Assembly: GCF_002113885.1 (NCBI RefSeq)
Contig: NW_018408896.1
Span: forward strand, 2,935,215 to 2,985,999
Direction: 5' to 3'
Origin: Mizuhopecten yessoensis
Taxonomy: Eukaryota
DNA length: 50,785 nucleotides
Shown here: in pieces, positions 43,223 through 50,000 of the stretch
Layout of the letters: each line of letters starts with the position of its first letter
Position numbering within the stretch: position 1 is the stretch's first letter
Notes under the pieces: generated by a model
Seen by the model: the letters and a program-made list of their open reading frames with translations, nothing else
Database searches by the model: none
Told to the model about the DNA's origin: nothing
Program-made: the position numbers and the translations under genes

Positions 43223-43391
43223 TTTCATTTCAGTAATAATTACCATAACTTTAGTATGCATATACAATACCTACACCCATCTTTGTAGCCCAAAAACAAA
43301 AGATTCAAATATCCCTACCTCCCTACCGTGACGTAACCTCTATCTCGATGACAGAGCCACGGAGTGATCTCCCTTCCTCTTCCTTTTATGG
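43223..43391 (+). repeat. DIRS-like left inverted terminal repeat (ITR-L)
   Basis: tttcatttcagtaataattaccataactttagtatgcatatacaatacctacacccatctttgtagcccaaaaacaaaagattcaaatatccctacctccctaccgtgacgtaacctctatctcgatgacagagccacggagtgatctcccttcctc... is the reverse complement of 49812-49957. Confidence 0.85.
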
Positions 43392-43782
43392 CGCCTGCTG
43401 CATGCTGACGCACGGAGCTTGCTCCAATTCAAAACATTGTTTTGTCGGTTTGGTTTGAGTGTCAACTCATATTTTTGCGCAGTTTGTGTGCCTTATACCC
43501 ATCTGCCTTTATTGATATAACTAATTGTTGTTGAAAATTATTTTTGTGCCTTTTACGGCCGGTTATTTTACTCCACGTGTGCCGGTGGTGTGCCACGGTC
43601 CGCCATTATCGTGGGTTAATTTCCGACCTCTGTTTATTTCGGTGACGGTTGTTTGTTTCGGCAAACGTTATTTATTTTAACCGTTTTCTGATTTATATTA
43701 CGGGTGAAATTCTTTCTACGTTGCGTACTTTGTACTATCGTATTTTAACCTTATTTTCCCGTTTTATCTGCTTGTAAATTTT

Positions 43783-46347
43783 TTGTTTACGTTCGCTTTG
43801 GAGGGTATGTCTCGGTCGGGACAGCGACGAGGTAGTGCTCATGGGTGTTCCCATTTCTTTGTGGAACGGGACCCTCATGATGCCTGTCCCAGGTGTCGTC
43901 CTTGCAGTGAGGTTTCGCCTTGTGAACTTTGTTCACAGTCAAAATCTCAGGGCAAGGACTTCATTGTTCCAAAGCTACCCTCAACTTACCGTAAGACAGA
44001 TTCGTCTGTTTCTTCCGGTAAGCGAGGGAAGCAGAGAGGTAGGGGTCGTGCCACCAGCTCTCTGGGGTCTGGTGGTACTGTCTCTGTTCCTGTCTCGGGG
44101 GGTCTTGCTTCGGCAAGTCCCTCTCGTGAGCAGGGGGTGGCCCTTCCTGTCCAGGAACTCCCTGGAGTAGGGGAGGGGCAGCCTGACCCTGGCTTGGCAC
44201 AGCCAAGGGTCGAATTGGCCGGGAACGCCCGTAAGCTTTCGCGCTTGCCTTCGGGTAGGGACTACCGGCCGCCGGTCACTGACTCTGTCAGTGATCCCGG
44301 CATTCCAGGTGGTGCTGTCGTTGGGGACAGTCTTGGTGCCGGGCCTGTTCTTTCGGGTTCAGGTCCTGGTGTGACAACAGACTTTCTTTCGGGATTGTCT
44401 GTGTCTACCGGGATTAGTGACGCGCAGCTCACTAATCCCGGCATCAATGCTGGTCAGGCATACCCTCCCGGTCAGTTACCCGGACCCGGTCCTATTAGGT
44501 CCGGTCCCGAGTTTCATTCTTCTGGGAACCTGGGGGGTTTCCCCCCAGGGGTTGGGTTTGCTGGACAGGGGGCCGGTTTCCGGCCTCCGTTTTCCCCTGG
44601 CTTAGGGTATACGGGTGCCTGCGGGCAACCATCCTTGGGCCGCCCTTACCAGCCTGCGGATGGTTTTGGGTTGCGGCAGCATCCCGGCAGTTACGGGCTT
44701 AGCCCGTACATGTCCGGGTTTCCACCTGGAGGGAGTGGCGGTCCACCTTCGCCCTTTGGGCAAGTTGGCCAGCCCCAGTCTCAGGCAGGCCAGTTTGGCC
44801 AGTTCTGGGGTCACTCCCAGCCCGCGGGACCTTTCCCCTATCCTCCGGGATATGGGTTTAACCCCATGGCATTTCCGTCATGGAATCCTTGGGGTTTGGT
44901 CTCTCCCTCGCGGAGACGTGTTAGCAGTTCTGTTGACCCCCCCCAACTTTCTGCTACTTCGGGGGCCTTATCGGCCGGTCCTAAGAAGGTGTGTCGGACC
45001 TTTAGGACTTCTGCCTCTCGGGCAGGCTCGTTGGTCTCTGGGTCCAAGGGTAGGGTTTTGGCTACTAAGCCTAAACCTACAGCCACGGCCGTTAGGCGCA
45101 CTGCACCTAAACGCCGGTACGGGGAGCCTTCTCTCGGGTTGGCCCCTCTGGCTGGCCCATTTCCTCCGCCCCAGGCTTCTGGTCTGGATGGTGTGGAGGC
45201 TATGGACGTTGAGGGCGCGGGTATGGCAGAGGACAATGATGTTGTTCATCTTTCACCTGGTTGTTCGGATATAGACGCTGGTCTTTCCGAGTCGTCTGAC
45301 GACAGTCCTCAGGAGGGCTTGCCCTCAGAGGAGGACTTCCAGGATGAGGGAGACCCTGAGGCTGCTGAGGTTGAGGCCCAGCATGTGTTATCCGGTATGC
45401 GGGGCCTTAGGGCTGACGTTTCCCGGATTCTTGGGGAGGAGGTTTGCCCACCACCTTCGGCATCATCTGTCCCCGAGTCCACCACCCTTTTGGGTTCTTT
45501 GGTGGCTCCTCGGGTGTCCGCTCGGTCGGACCGCTCTCTGCCAGAAGGCACCATTGTGTCTTCAGCTCTGGCCACCGCCCAGTCTCGGGTTTTAGGGAAG
45601 AATTCTTCTTCAACCCGTAGTCCTGGGTATGCTGGGTTGCAGCTCAGTGTTGGCGATTTGTCAGAGGTGCACGCCACTGACTATGCCACACATGATGGTC
45701 TGCTTGCCCCTCAACCAGCTAAGCTGGAATCGAGGGAACTTGCAGCTTGGCCCGGTAAATCGGTGGACCAGGTGGTGTTCGGTCCCAAAGAACACCACAA
45801 GATGGAGAGACTGCTGCGTCTCTCCATCCAGATTCTGTCGTATATAGACTACTTGACGGTTTGTCTATATAGGGTATCCGACTTGCCTGAGGGTCGGATT
45901 ACCGAGACAGAGCAGGCCGACATCCAGGACAGAGTGACCTCTGCCCTGAACGGGGCATTGAGAGCGCTGGCAGCTTTACAGGTGTCATCCCTCGTCAATG
46001 TCTTGTTGGCTAGGCGGTTTTCAGTTTTGAAAAATCGCCCGGTCGATGAGCCTTACCGTTCCAGACTGTTGACTGCCCCCTTCTCAGGGTCCACTCTTTT
46101 TGGAGGGGCCCTTCCTTCTGTTCAGAAGGATTTGAAGGAGGACTCGGTCGCCTCTGCACTTCTGGTGAAGAGGATTCAGGCTGAGAAGGCCAGTACCTCG
46201 CAGGGGTCAGCGCCTCCTAAGAAGAAGGCTAAACCTTCGGCTTCGCAGTCCTCTGCGCAGCCCAAGTATAAGCCTCCCTTCAAGGGCAACAAATGGAAGG
46301 GTAAGAAGGGTAAGAACCCTCCTGGGGGTAAGAAGAAGGGTTCCTGA
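43783..46347 (+). CDS. DIRS-like ORF1 (gag-like, 854 aa): Cys/His-containing N-terminus, long Gly/Pro-rich low-complexity middle, Lys-rich C-terminal tail
   Basis: Long ORF immediately 5' of the RT ORF. N-terminus CSHFFVERDPHDACPRCRPCSEVSPCELC; C-terminus KKKAKPSASQSSAQPKYKPPFKGNKWKGKKGKNPPGGKKKGS. High GC relative to the host flank. Confidence 0.7.
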   Translation: MFTFALEGMSRSGQRRGSAHGCSHFFVERDPHDACPRCRPCSEVSPCELCSQSKSQGKDFIVPKLPSTYRKTDSSVSSGKRGKQRGRGRATSSLGSGGTVSVPVSGGLASASPSREQGVALPVQELPGVGEGQPDPGLAQPRVELAGNARKLSRLPSGRDYRPPVTDSVSDPGIPGGAVVGDSLGAGPVLSGSGPGVTTDFLSGLSVSTGISDAQLTNPGINAGQAYPPGQLPGPGPIRSGPEFHSSGNLGGFPPGVGFAGQGAGFRPPFSPGLGYTGACGQPSLGRPYQPADGFGLRQHPGSYGLSPYMSGFPPGGSGGPPSPFGQVGQPQSQAGQFGQFWGHSQPAGPFPYPPGYGFNPMAFPSWNPWGLVSPSRRRVSSSVDPPQLSATSGALSAGPKKVCRTFRTSASRAGSLVSGSKGRVLATKPKPTATAVRRTAPKRRYGEPSLGLAPLAGPFPPPQASGLDGVEAMDVEGAGMAEDNDVVHLSPGCSDIDAGLSESSDDSPQEGLPSEEDFQDEGDPEAAEVEAQHVLSGMRGLRADVSRILGEEVCPPPSASSVPESTTLLGSLVAPRVSARSDRSLPEGTIVSSALATAQSRVLGKNSSSTRSPGYAGLQLSVGDLSEVHATDYATHDGLLAPQPAKLESRELAAWPGKSVDQVVFGPKEHHKMERLLRLSIQILSYIDYLTVCLYRVSDLPEGRITETEQADIQDRVTSALNGALRALAALQVSSLVNVLLARRFSVLKNRPVDEPYRSRLLTAPFSGSTLFGGALPSVQKDLKEDSVASALLVKRIQAEKASTSQGSAPPKKKAKPSASQSSAQPKYKPPFKGNKWKGKKGKNPPGGKKKGS

Positions 46348-46363
46348 CTCTTTTCTTCCCTCC

Positions 46364-49449: not shown

Positions 49450-49653
49450 TTCAGTGATTTTAAATAGTATGCTATCAGGCACCACGGTGGTACACCTGCT
49501 CGTTTCACGGGGAGGTTTTCCATTTTTTAATTACTTTCGGGGCTTTATTAGGGGGGTTCCTTGAACCTTTTCCCTACCTTGAGCATGTCTCGAGTTTGTT
49601 CCGTCAGCCTGGTCTGCCTGGATTCGAAGCCTCCACTACGGTAAGACGAATTC

Positions 49654-49748
49654 GCATACTAAAGTTATGGTAATTATTACTGAAATGAAATTGAGGTTTT
49701 TGAAGTAAAACCAATTTTCATGATGTAATACTTACCATAACTTTATGG
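49654..49748 (+). repeat. DIRS-like internal complementary region (ICR)
   Basis: gcatactaaagttatggtaattattactgaaatgaaa is the reverse complement of the ITR-L outer tip. ttgaggtttttgaagtaaaaccaattttcatgatgtaatacttaccataacttta is the reverse complement of the ITR-R outer tip. Confidence 0.8.
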
Positions 49749-49801
49749 AGTCCCACCCTGTATTCCTCCCCTTGCCTCCTCATCCTGGCTGCCTTTAGGC
49801 T

Positions 49802-50000
49802 CCATAAAAGGGGGTTTGAGGAAGGGAGATCACTCCGTGGCTCTGTCATCGAGATAGAGGTTACGTCACGGTAGGGAGGTAGGGATATTTGAATCTTTTG
49901 TTTTTGGGCTACAAAGATGGGTGTAGGTATTGTATATGCATACTAAAGTTATGGTAAGTATTACATCATGAAAATTGGTTTTACTTCAAAAACCTCAATT
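49802..50000 (+). repeat. DIRS-like right inverted terminal repeat (ITR-R), with a ~43-bp outer extension not present in ITR-L
   Basis: 49812-49957 is the reverse complement of ITR-L. 49958-50000 (gtattacatcatgaaaattggttttacttcaaaaacctcaatt) is unique to the right end but is copied in the ICR. Confidence 0.8.

What the first reader, a model, noticed from the sequence alone, without database searches (positions are those of the whole stretch)
43223..50000. Intact DIRS-type retrotransposon with the full ITR + ICR circularisation architecture
The element has unequal inverted terminal repeats (169 bp left; 199 bp right including a 43-bp extension). It also has a ~95-bp internal complementary region just upstream of ITR-R. 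The two halves of this region are reverse complements of the left outer tip (43223-43259, 37/37 identical) and the right outer tip (49939-50001, ~55/60). These halves are joined through a shared AAA/TTT. This is the structure proposed for DIRS1 to template end-joining through a circular intermediate. All three ORFs are uninterrupted (gag 854 aa; RT/RH 728 aa with YFDDSLM and TDAS..GWGA; YR with R..HxxR..Y). The ITRs are ~99% identical. These features argue for a recent, possibly still competent, copy.
Basis: partly seen in the sequence, partly recalled or inferred. Interest (0 to 1): 0.8.

Follow-up and report, generated by a model that had tools for sequence, protein, structure and literature searches.

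The report
Young intact DIRS1-like retrotransposon, scallop
This is a very recently inserted, structurally complete copy of a known kind of jumping gene (a DIRS1-like retrotransposon) in a scallop-type genome; it is ordinary for its class, but comparing it with 70 relatives suggests how these elements translate their overlapping genes from a single leaky stop codon.

Summary
Window 43223-50001 (6,779 bp, 55-61% GC in a ~35% GC host) is a DIRS1-like tyrosine-recombinase retrotransposon.

- **Repeats:** the inverted terminal repeats match at 145/146 in the core. A 92-nt internal complementary region has halves that are perfect reverse complements of the left tip (37/37) and right tip (58/58) and share AAA. 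Both ends are TTT.
- **Proteins:** gag; a Ty3-like RT/RNase H with a Dam-like methyltransferase fold; and a Cre-like tyrosine recombinase. Pfam missed the recombinase, but a family profile and a predicted structure confirm it.
- **Context:** every one of these features is already described for the superfamily (Piednoël 2011), and DIRS elements are routinely annotated in bivalves. This is a new member of a known kind.
- **Caveat on competence:** the copy carries a private Ile-to-Ser change at an RNase H position that is Ile in 73 of 74 loci.
- **New lead:** the recombinase frame is stop-free across the whole pol gene (0 stops against ~33 expected). It begins exactly at the gag stop, in the gag frame. 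In 71 relatives that stop is never TAA and is followed by C or G in 96%. This suggests readthrough to Gag-X-YR and a +1 shift to Gag-Pol. That part is inferred, not shown.

The parts
43223..50001 (+). Whole DIRS1-like element, 6,779 bp
   Evidence: The ends are defined by ICR complementarity and by where homology starts and stops in independent copies L001 and L002. GC is 55-61% inside against ~35% outside.
43223..43232 (+). Left tip outside the conserved ITR (the 'divergent ITR'), starting with the terminal trinucleotide TTT (43223-43225)
   Evidence: It is complementary to the ICR left half.
43233..43396 (+). Left inverted terminal repeat (core 43233-43378)
   Evidence: 145/146 identical to the reverse complement of 49964-49819. 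It extends with a 4-nt indel to 43396/49797.
43807..46347 (+). ORF1, gag-like, 846 aa from ATG. It has an N-terminal Cys/His motif and a basic Lys/Gly-rich C-terminus, and ends in TGA.
   Evidence: The assignment rests on position and on homologous ORF1s of similar length in L006 and L007. There is no Pfam hit.
46345..46347 (+). Junction stop codon, context GGT TCC TGA CTC. It ends gag, the X-YR frame continues in phase after it, and the pol frame runs +1 across it.
   Evidence: The same arrangement is seen in 71 related loci.
46169..48550 (+). pol ORF in the +1 frame relative to gag. RT is about 46778-47263, RNase H about 47594-47950, and the methyltransferase-like domain 47954-48547. There is no ATG before 46703.
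47696..47698 (+). Private substitution I445S (codon AGC) in the RNase H motif H-I-N-x-L-E
   Evidence: 73 of 74 loci have Ile and only the window has Ser.
46348..48444 (+). 'X' region: the roughly 700-codon part of the YR-frame ORF that overlaps pol. It is Ser/Gly/Arg-rich. It is kept open but its sequence is not conserved.
   Evidence: 0 stops against 32.6 expected, minimum 17 in 20,000 synonymous shuffles. X identity to relatives is 73/37/23%, against pol at 90/69/51%. Substitutions fall on pol codon position 3. No Pfam hit.
48445..49449 (+). Tyrosine recombinase, made of a core-binding and a catalytic domain. The conserved columns R140, K174, H270-x-x-R273, W296 and Y306 are all present.
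   Evidence: Profile A1 against Cre scores 4.5e-7, aligning HxxR, W and Y. The AlphaFold2 model has pLDDT 90, and Foldseek matches Cre at E 2e-9, TM 0.71-0.75. The window deviates at 0 of 47 conserved columns.
46382..46422 (+). Predicted RNA hairpin 35 nt downstream of the junction stop, with ATG 46399 in its loop
   Evidence: Fold z-score -2.7. L006 keeps the pairing with changes on both sides of the stem, and has GTG in place of the ATG. It is not seen in L007, so its role is uncertain.
49654..49745 (+). Internal complementary region. The left half is 49654-49690, the right half 49688-49745, and the circular-junction AAA is 49688-49690.
   Evidence: 37/37 and 58/58 complementarity to the tips. 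Both halves covary with the tips in the A. irradians copy L002a.
49797..49964 (+). Right inverted terminal repeat (core 49819-49964)
49965..50001 (+). Right tip beyond the ITR core, made of a ~10-nt divergent stretch and a ~27-nt right extension. It ends in the terminal trinucleotide TTT (49999-50001).
   Evidence: It is fully mirrored in the ICR right half.

Best explanation
Window 43223-50001 is a full-length, very young copy of a DIRS1-like (tyrosine-recombinase) retrotransposon in a pectinid scallop-type genome.

**What is shown.**
- The domain set is gag; Ty3-type RT/RNase H plus a Dam-like methyltransferase fold; and a Cre-like recombinase. No protease or DDE integrase domain was detected.
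- The repeat set is ITRs, a right extension, a two-part ICR overlapping on AAA, and TTT at both ends.

**What is inferred from the established DIRS-1 model** (Cappello 1985, as summarised in PMC7192593 and PMC3266345).
- A sub-genomic transcript is reverse-transcribed.
- The missing termini are rebuilt by copying the ITR and by annealing both cDNA ends side by side on the ICR. This defines a circle junction ...CCTCAA-TTT-CATTTCAG....
- The recombinase then exchanges strands between the junction TTT and a genomic TTT. That leaves TTT at each end and no target-site duplication.

**What is inferred here from comparative sequence.**
- All three proteins hang on one leaky stop codon (UCC UGA C, 46345-46347).
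- Termination gives Gag.
- Readthrough gives Gag-X-YR. X is a roughly 700-residue, unconserved Ser/Gly/Arg-rich linker overprinted on pol.
- A +1 shift at or near the stop gives Gag-Pol.
- Fusion to Gag would stand in for the protease that DIRS elements lack.
For: **Identity.**
- RVT_1 scores 5e-22, and the pol profile hits Ty3 RT/RH at 6.5e-32.
- The YR profile hits Cre at 4.5e-7, and the model matches Cre at TM 0.71-0.75.

**Repeats.** The same boundaries appear in L001 and L002. The ICR and the tips covary between the window and L002a in both halves, as expected if the ICR templates the ends.

**Youth.** There are 0 mismatches in 139 nt of ITR beyond the ICR-covered tips, plus 95 nt of ICR/tip pairing.

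**Literature match.** PMC3266345 Table 3 lists, for example, XtDIRS3 with TTT/TTT/AAA, a conserved ITR of 123 nt, a right extension of 34 nt, an ICR of 41-65 nt, and a long ORF overlap. The ICR is experimentally essential in Dictyostelium (PMC7192593).

**Recoding.**
- The frame one nucleotide back from pol has 0 stops over 733 codons, against 32.6 expected.
- In 71 loci with 37-90% pol identity, the roughly 1,000-codon ORF starts at a stop 0-60 codons before the conserved PVGGRL motif. In 60-63 of them gag lies directly upstream in the same frame.
- That stop is TGA in 42, TAG in 29 and TAA in 0. The next base is C or G in 68 of 71. The pol and YR stops, used as controls, are TAA in 14/71 and 14/60.
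- There is no conserved ATG after the stop: the median first ATG is 59 codons in, and more than 100 codons in for 29 of 71. 40 of 71 loci lack any ATG in the pol frame upstream of the conserved PVGGRL motif.
- Codon-position periodicity of substitutions switches from the gag frame to the pol frame at the stop.
Against: - Nothing was measured for expression, cDNA, circles or transposition.
- The copy has a private I445S change at an otherwise near-invariant RNase H position, so it may be crippled.
- No other copy above about 83% nucleotide identity was found. The host assembly could not be searched, so copy number and insertion polymorphism are unknown.
- Malicki et al. (PMC7192593) found mostly linear single-stranded cDNA and could not amplify circle junctions, so the circular step of the model remains unproven even in Dictyostelium.
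- For recoding, codons before the stop are heterogeneous (CCC 10, TCC 8, AAA 7, many others). No single +1 slippery motif is conserved.
- The 71 loci are not phylogenetically independent.
- Spliced or subgenomic mRNAs were not excluded.
- The key reviews (Poulter & Goodwin 2005; Goodwin & Poulter 2001) could not be read, so the arrangement may already be described.
Confidence: 0.85

Rival explanations
1. The copy is structurally intact but functionally dead. It is a recent insertion made in trans by other family members, or one that acquired a disabling change, and cannot transpose on its own.
For: - I445S sits in the RNase H H-I-N-x-L-E motif, where 73 of 74 loci keep Ile.
- L155F is a second deviation.
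- DIRS-1 proteins can act in trans in Dictyostelium (PMC7192593).
Against: - Only 2 of 142 conserved pol columns and 0 of 47 YR columns deviate.
- All three frames are open.
- The junction stop context is intact, and the ICR and tips are perfect.
Confidence: 0.3
2. The long stop-free YR frame is not translated from the gag stop. Instead, YR and Pol are made from spliced or subgenomic mRNAs, internal or non-AUG initiation, or termination-reinitiation (for example at ATG 46399). The open frame would then be a by-product.
For: - The window has an ATG 17 codons after the stop.
- No uniform +1 slippery site exists across loci.
- DIRS expression has not been studied outside Dictyostelium.
Against: - ATG 46399 is GTG in L006.
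- The first ATG lies more than 100 codons in for 29 of 71 loci, yet the frame is stop-free from the gag stop in all 71.
- A by-product cannot explain 0 stops against about 33 expected in two elements that share only ~51% pol identity.
- It also cannot explain the complete absence of TAA at the junction.
Confidence: 0.3
3. It belongs to another retroelement class: an LTR (Gypsy-like) element, or a Ngaro or PAT-type YR element.
For: The RT/RNase H is most similar to Ty3 and to caulimovirus enzymes.
Against: - There are no direct terminal or split direct repeats. The only direct repeats of 20 nt or more are ICR/tip echoes.
- The ITR and ICR are present.
- No rve, protease or other Pfam domain is found in any ORF.
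- A methyltransferase domain is present, and Ngaro elements lack one (PMC3266345).
Confidence: 0.01

Closest known systems
DIRS1-like superfamily, deuterostome-type members such as XtDIRS3 and AcDIRS2 (Piednoël et al. 2011, PMC3266345, Table 3)
   Same: - TTT termini with an AAA circular junction.
- A short divergent ITR tip (about 10-26 nt), a conserved ITR of 120-140 nt, and a right extension of about 27-34 nt.
- ICR halves of about 40 and 60 nt.
- The same three ORFs (gag; pol = RT/RH/MT; YR).
- A long overlap between the YR and pol ORFs.
   Different: - The host is a bivalve mollusc.
- The element is longer: 6,779 bp against a maximum of 6,283 bp among the 28 annotated elements. The extra length comes mainly from an 846-aa gag.
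- The RT motif is YFDD rather than YL/IDD (6 of 33 relatives share YFDD).
Previously annotated mollusc DIRS1-like elements (AcaDIRS1/2 from Aplysia, LgDIRS1-3 from Lottia; PMC3266345)
   Same: Same phylum, same superfamily, and the same ITR/ICR/right-extension logic.
   Different: - Four of the five have ATT termini with an AAT junction (LgDIRS2 has AAT termini with an ATT junction).
- Their conserved ITRs are mostly 31-36 nt and their right extensions 46-49 nt.
- They are 4.7-5.8 kb long.
- They show 'no long ORF overlap'. The window element and all bivalve or metagenome relatives examined here do have the overlap.
Dictyostelium discoideum DIRS-1 (Cappello 1985; Malicki 2020, PMC7192593)
   Same: - Non-identical inverted terminal repeats.
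- A single ICR whose two parts (33 + 55 nt) complement the left and right ends.
- Overlapping YR and pol ORFs.
- The ICR has been shown experimentally to be essential.
   Different: - It is 4.8 kb long with terminal repeats of about 300 bp.
- Its termini are TTA with a TAA junction.
- It is an amoebozoan host element that clusters in centromeres.
- No experiments exist for the scallop element.
Programmed stop-codon readthrough (MuLV gag-pol UAG-G; alphavirus and plant-virus UGA-C(G/U)N) and +1 frameshifting at stops or slow codons (antizyme UCC-UGA-U, prfB CUU-UGA-C, Ty1/Ty3). This entry rests on my own knowledge, not on a test here.
   Same: - A single in-frame UGA or UAG, never UAA.
- The stop is followed by C or G, between gag and a downstream in-frame ORF.
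- In the window the exact antizyme core UCC-UGA precedes a +1 pol frame.
   Different: - Both events would have to use the same stop.
- The readthrough product would run about 700 codons through the alternative frame of pol.
- No conserved stimulatory RNA structure or slippery codon was found across loci.
- Nothing has been shown experimentally.

Membership tests
DIRS1-like retrotransposons (order DIRS) | Reverse transcriptase and RNase H of the Ty3/Gypsy-related type | tested here: met
   Pfam RVT_1 5.2e-22 and RT_RNaseH 1.3e-4. Profile A2 hits Ty3 RT/RH structures 4ol8 and 7q5b at 6.5e-32 over positions 74-509. YxDD, D417, E449 and D474 are conserved.
DIRS1-like retrotransposons (order DIRS) | Methyltransferase-like domain downstream of RNase H in the pol ORF | tested here: met
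   [not shown]
DIRS1-like retrotransposons (order DIRS) | Tyrosine recombinase instead of a DDE integrase, and no aspartic protease | tested here: met
   The family profile hits Cre at 4.5e-7 with HxxR, W and Y aligned. The model (pLDDT 90) matches Cre at TM 0.71-0.75. Pfam finds no rve, RVP or other domain in any ORF. Pfam Phage_integrase itself does not hit the window protein, although some homologues carry PF00589 or PF02899.
DIRS1-like retrotransposons (order DIRS) | Inverted terminal repeats rather than direct repeats, with a right extension | tested here: met
   The ITR core is 145/146 identical. The right tip extends 37 nt beyond the core, against 10 nt on the left. There are no long direct terminal repeats.
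DIRS1-like retrotransposons (order DIRS) | Two adjacent internal complementary regions near the 3' end, complementary to the left and right termini and overlapping on a 3-bp circular junction | tested here: met
   49654-49690 matches the left tip at 37/37 and 49688-49745 matches the right tip at 58/58, overlapping on AAA. The halves covary with the tips in L002a.
DIRS1-like retrotransposons (order DIRS) | The element begins and ends with the trinucleotide complementary to the junction, and has no target-site duplication | tested here: met
   TTT is at 43223-43225 and at 49999-50001, and the junction is AAA. The flanks ...AATAACAG and AAAGTATT... share no further duplication.
DIRS1-like retrotransposons (order DIRS) | Gag-like first ORF | tested here: inconclusive
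   An 846-aa ORF1 sits in the expected position, and homologous ORF1s occur in relatives. There is no Pfam family at E <= 0.01 for the full protein or for 22 homologues. A LAP2alpha hit on a fragment (E 0.006) was not reproduced.
DIRS1-like retrotransposons (order DIRS) | Retrotransposition through an ICR-templated intermediate, followed by YR-mediated integration | not testable with these tools
   Shown only in Dictyostelium, where ICR deletion abolishes retrotransposition (PMC7192593). Here the only support is sequence covariation.
Ngaro / PAT-like YR retrotransposons | Split direct repeats (A1...B1-A2-B2) instead of ITR plus ICR. Ngaro elements also lack the methyltransferase domain. | tested here: not met
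   No split direct repeats are present. The ITR and ICR are present, and so is a methyltransferase domain.
LTR retrotransposons (Ty3/Gypsy) | Direct long terminal repeats, a protease, a DDE integrase and a target-site duplication | tested here: not met
   None of these is present. Only the RT/RNase H is related.

The most novel reading that the evidence does not exclude
In this element, and in at least 71 related DIRS1-like elements, one weak stop codon at the end of gag would act as a three-way translational switch.

- Termination makes Gag.
- Stop-codon readthrough makes a Gag-X-YR fusion. Its roughly 700-residue X segment is an unconserved linker overprinted on the whole pol gene.
- A +1 frameshift at or next to the same stop makes Gag-Pol.

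This would explain the unexplained 'long ORF overlap' of DIRS elements. It would also explain how protease-less elements deliver RT and recombinase to Gag particles. I found no description of it in the literature I could search.
Probability: 0.35. Interest if true: 0.6.

Novelty: new member of a known kind. Interest (0 to 1): 0.4.

Why it matters
**As a genome feature it is routine.** DIRS elements are already counted in bivalve repeat annotations (PMC8905726, PMC10294476). Every structural feature matches the published superfamily description.

**Its value is practical.**
- A zero-divergence, full-length animal DIRS copy with perfect ICR/tip pairing is a good template for a marked-element retrotransposition assay. 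Such an assay exists today only for Dictyostelium.
- It extends the 'long ORF overlap' type of DIRS to molluscs, where the 2011 survey found none.

**The wider lead is the family-wide junction architecture.** Gag and YR lie in one frame, separated by a single UGA or UAG that is never UAA and is followed by C or G, with pol in the +1 frame. If confirmed, this would turn an old descriptive oddity of DIRS elements into a testable recoding mechanism. It would also add a case of dual recoding at one stop codon, together with one of the longest maintained overprinted frames.

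Tried and rejected
- **Pfam on the YR ORF.** There was no Phage_integrase hit, only Phage_int_SAM_4 at E 0.12. A family profile and a predicted structure resolved the question instead.
- **LAP2alpha in gag.** A fragment hit at E 0.006 was not reproduced on full-length gag or on 22 homologues. 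I dropped it.
- **Sequence search of the methyltransferase domain against PDB.** Only noise came back (TIRAP at E 0.2). The fold search was needed.
- **Host and neighbouring-gene identification.** I searched with the exon-like ORF next to the insertion and found no informative hit.
- **Exact-sequence look-ups of the window's gag and X-YR proteins.** Neither is on record. The source assembly, copy number and empty sites could therefore not be examined.
- **L001 as a frame comparator.** A run of N sits at its gag-pol junction, so its frames there are uninformative.
- **L002a.** This is a degraded copy with frameshifting indels in pol. I used it only for the termini.
- **ATG 46399 as the YR start.** Rejected as a conserved start, because it is GTG in L006 and there is no conserved ATG across loci.
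- **A conserved +1 slippery codon.** The codons before the stop are heterogeneous.
- **Key non-open-access reviews** (Poulter & Goodwin 2005; Goodwin & Poulter 2001). They are not held.
- **Literature searches for DIRS with frameshift or readthrough.** Nothing relevant was found.

Full report
**1. Observation**

The repeats are real and far beyond chance.

- A repeat scan of 42500-50785 finds a 147-nt inverted pair, 43233-43379 against 49818-49964, at 99%.
- A local alignment gives 145/146 identity for 43233-43378 against 49964-49819. It continues through a 4-nt indel to 43396/49797 (blastn 95% over 168 nt, E 2e-72).
- The internal complementary region (ICR) is 49654-49745. Bases 49654-49690 are the exact reverse complement of 43223-43259 (37/37). 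Bases 49688-49745 are the exact reverse complement of 49944-50001 (58/58). The two halves share AAA at 49688-49690.
- The element therefore runs 43223-50001 (6,779 bp) and has TTT at both ends.
- The only ITR mismatch (43239 A against 49958 C) lies inside the ICR-covered tips, and each variant is mirrored in its own ICR half. It is a built-in difference and not decay.
- GC content is 55-61% inside the element and about 35% around it.
- Related copies confirm the boundaries. One is in Argopecten irradians (L002, 82% nucleotide identity) and one is on a metagenome scaffold (L001). In both, homology starts at the same TTTCATTTCAG after unrelated flanking DNA.
The right extension is 37 nt, not 43. 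The right tip matches at 58/58, not ~55/60. The end is 50001.

**2. The proteins**

*pol.* The ORF from TTG 46364 to 48550 has Pfam RVT_1 at 5.2e-22 and a weak RT_RNaseH hit. A profile of 33 homologues hits Ty3 RT/RNase H structures at 6.5e-32.

*Recombinase.* Pfam does not detect it. Three lines of evidence nevertheless identify it.
- Its homologues include proteins that carry PF00589 or PF02899, or are named Tyr-recombinase.
- A 35-sequence profile hits Cre at 4.5e-7, with HxxR, W and the nucleophile Y aligned.
- The AlphaFold2 model (pLDDT 90) superposes on full-length Cre at TM 0.71-0.75, E 2e-9.

*Other domains.* No protease or DDE integrase domain is detected anywhere.

*ORF1.* It is 846 aa from ATG 43807 and is gag-like only by position and composition. 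It has a Cys/His motif at the N-terminus and a Lys/Gly-rich basic C-terminus. It has no Pfam family.

*Host.* The best named hits are Argopecten irradians at 88-92% identity, then other pectinids and mussels. The host is therefore a scallop-type bivalve.

**3. What it is**

All defining features of the DIRS1-like superfamily, as laid out by Piednoël et al. 2011 (PMC3266345), are met.
- ITRs with a short divergent tip and a conserved core.
- A right extension.
- Two ICRs overlapping on a 3-bp circular junction.
- Terminal trinucleotides complementary to that junction.
- A gag, pol (RT/RH/MT) and YR gene set.
- A long ORF overlap in about half of the described elements.

The parameters resemble the TTT/AAA elements of frogs and lizards (for example XtDIRS3) more than the ATT/AAT elements described from gastropods. 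Ngaro, PAT and LTR classes are excluded because there are no direct or split repeats. DIRS elements are routinely reported in bivalve repeat annotations. This is a new member of a known kind.

**4. How it most likely works**

*Inferred from the DIRS-1 model* (Cappello 1985, as summarised in PMC7192593).
- A transcript lacking the outermost ends is reverse-transcribed.
- The ITR is copied to restore most of the left end.
- Both cDNA ends then anneal side by side on the ICR. This templates the missing tips and defines the joint CCTCAA-TTT-CATTTCAG.
- The recombinase exchanges strands between this TTT and a genomic TTT, leaving TTT on both sides and no duplication.

*New support here.* In the A. 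irradians copy, the left-tip sequence differs from the window (GGTAACGTATTAC against GGTAATTATTAC), and so does the right-tip sequence (TTTTTCAATGTAAAACC against TTTTTGAAGTAAAACC). In both cases the change appears in the tip and in the matching ICR half. That is what templating predicts. The ICR has been shown to be essential in Dictyostelium. The circular form itself has not been captured.

**5. Age and competence**

There is no mismatch in 139 nt of ITR outside the ICR-covered tips, nor in the 95 nt of ICR/tip pairing. No post-insertion change is detectable in 234 nt of redundant sequence, so the insertion is very young. This is an inference. The date depends on an unknown mutation rate.

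The YR deviates at 0 of 47 columns that are at least 90% conserved in relatives. The pol deviates at 2 of 142: L155F and I445S. I445S (AGC at 47696-47698) is private to this copy. 73 of 74 loci, including the closest relatives, keep Ile in the RNase H motif H-I-N-x-L-E. Autonomy therefore cannot be assumed.

**6.

- *Frame layout in the window.* The YR frame is open over 46348-49449 (1,033 codons). It covers all of pol in the frame one nucleotide back from pol. It starts immediately after the gag stop and lies in the gag frame. Frame 1 of the window therefore has a single stop between 43708 and 49449.
- *Openness is selected.* Shuffling synonymous codons of pol gives 32.6 stops in that frame (minimum 17 in 20,000 shuffles), against 0 observed. 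The frame one nucleotide ahead of pol has 35 stops. A relative with 51% pol identity (L003) gives 0 against 33.9.
- *The overlapped part (X) is kept open but not conserved.* Substitutions against L001 and L002 fall on pol codon position 3 (27-31%, against 5-9% at the other positions). X identity to relatives is 73, 37 and 23%, where pol is 90, 69 and 51% and YR is 87, 67 and 49%. X is 39% Ser+Gly+Arg.
- *The pattern is family-wide.* I fetched 80 related loci from metagenomes. In 71 with an intact pol (37-90% identity), the same roughly 1,000-codon ORF begins at a stop 0-60 codons upstream of the conserved pol motif PVGGRL. In 60-63 of them a long gag ORF lies directly upstream in the same frame.
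- *The junction stop looks leaky.* It is TGA in 42, TAG in 29 and TAA in 0, and is followed by C in 41, G in 27, T in 3 and A in 0. The commonest contexts are TGA-CTN, TGA-GGG, TAG-GGN and TAG-CGN. The pol and YR stops of the same loci use TAA in 14/71 and 14/60 and show no such context. From my own knowledge, UGA-C and UAG-G contexts are the classic leaky ones.
- *No conserved start codons.* No ATG is conserved after the stop: the median first ATG is 59 codons in, and more than 100 codons in for 29 of 71. The window's ATG 46399 is GTG in L006. 40 of 71 loci lack any ATG in the pol frame upstream of the conserved PVGGRL motif.
- *Constraint switches at the stop.* Substitution periodicity changes from the gag frame to the pol (+1) frame at the stop.

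*Best reading (inferred).* Readthrough of the gag stop yields Gag-X-YR, and a +1 shift at or near it yields Gag-Pol. The window's UCC-UGA is the antizyme +1 shift core (my own knowledge). Fusion to Gag would replace the processing that protease-less DIRS elements cannot do.

*Weak points.* The codons before the stop are heterogeneous. The loci are not independent. Alternative mRNAs are untested. I could not read the main non-open-access reviews. Searches of the held library found no mention of such recoding.

**7. Surroundings**

The element lies about 120 nt upstream, in the gene's own direction, of an exon-like ORF on the minus strand. That ORF (~42822-43100) has good splice-site consensus at both ends, so the insertion would be intronic and antisense. 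A homology search with the exon was uninformative. Immediately to the right, a 72-bp tandem array begins and runs off the window.

**8. Verdict**

As a feature this is a new member of a known kind and scores low to moderate. The family-wide junction architecture is the only part that might be new. I give it about 0.35 probability of being both correct and undescribed.

Noticed in passing
window 42822-43100 (- strand): There is an exon-like ORF with a polypyrimidine-AG acceptor (…tttttttacag|CAAAATAC) and a CAG|gtagga donor. It encodes a Lys-rich, RGG-repeat and acidic Ser-rich peptide. The DIRS element sits about 120 nt upstream of the acceptor, in antisense orientation. A homology search gave nothing informative.
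   Followed up: partly
window 38364-40916: A 51-bp satellite with 50 copies at 97% identity. It creates spurious ~900-aa ORFs on both strands.
   Followed up: no
window 31590-33105: Two adjacent tandem arrays built from a related 49/97-bp unit: 10.6 copies of 97 bp, then 7.5 copies of 49 bp.
   Followed up: no
window 50429-50785: A 72-bp tandem repeat starts about 430 bp to the right of the element and runs off the window end. Its relation to the insertion site is unknown.
   Followed up: no
L002 1257-8008 and 9989-13239 (A. irradians JAYEEO010000241.1): This locus holds two copies of the related element, one full-length but degraded and one 5'-truncated. They share the identical right flank (aagtgagaaccattagag…). 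They therefore arose by segmental duplication and not by two separate insertions. The full copy ends in ATT instead of the TTT predicted by its ICR.
   Followed up: partly
[not shown]
   Followed up: partly
window 43840-43935 (gag N-terminus): A Cys/His-rich motif, GCSHFFVERDPHDACPRCRPCSEVSPCELC. It recurs at the gag N-terminus of many distant relatives (L007, L021, L040, L043, L049, L074, L077) but is lost in the close relative L006. No Pfam match.
   Followed up: partly
window 46382-46422: A stable RNA hairpin lies 35 nt downstream of the gag stop (z -2.7). L006 keeps the pairing with changes on both sides of the stem, but L007 does not have the hairpin.
   Followed up: partly
L003, L005, L008, L009, L010 (junction regions): In a mussel-type subgroup, the 25 nt after the junction TAG are nearly identical (…TTGCCCCCTCGTACGTTAYTGACAG), even though pol identity to the window is only about 52% and the flanking junction sequence varies. 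This could be a recoding signal or a conserved pol N-terminal peptide (LPPRTLL).
   Followed up: no
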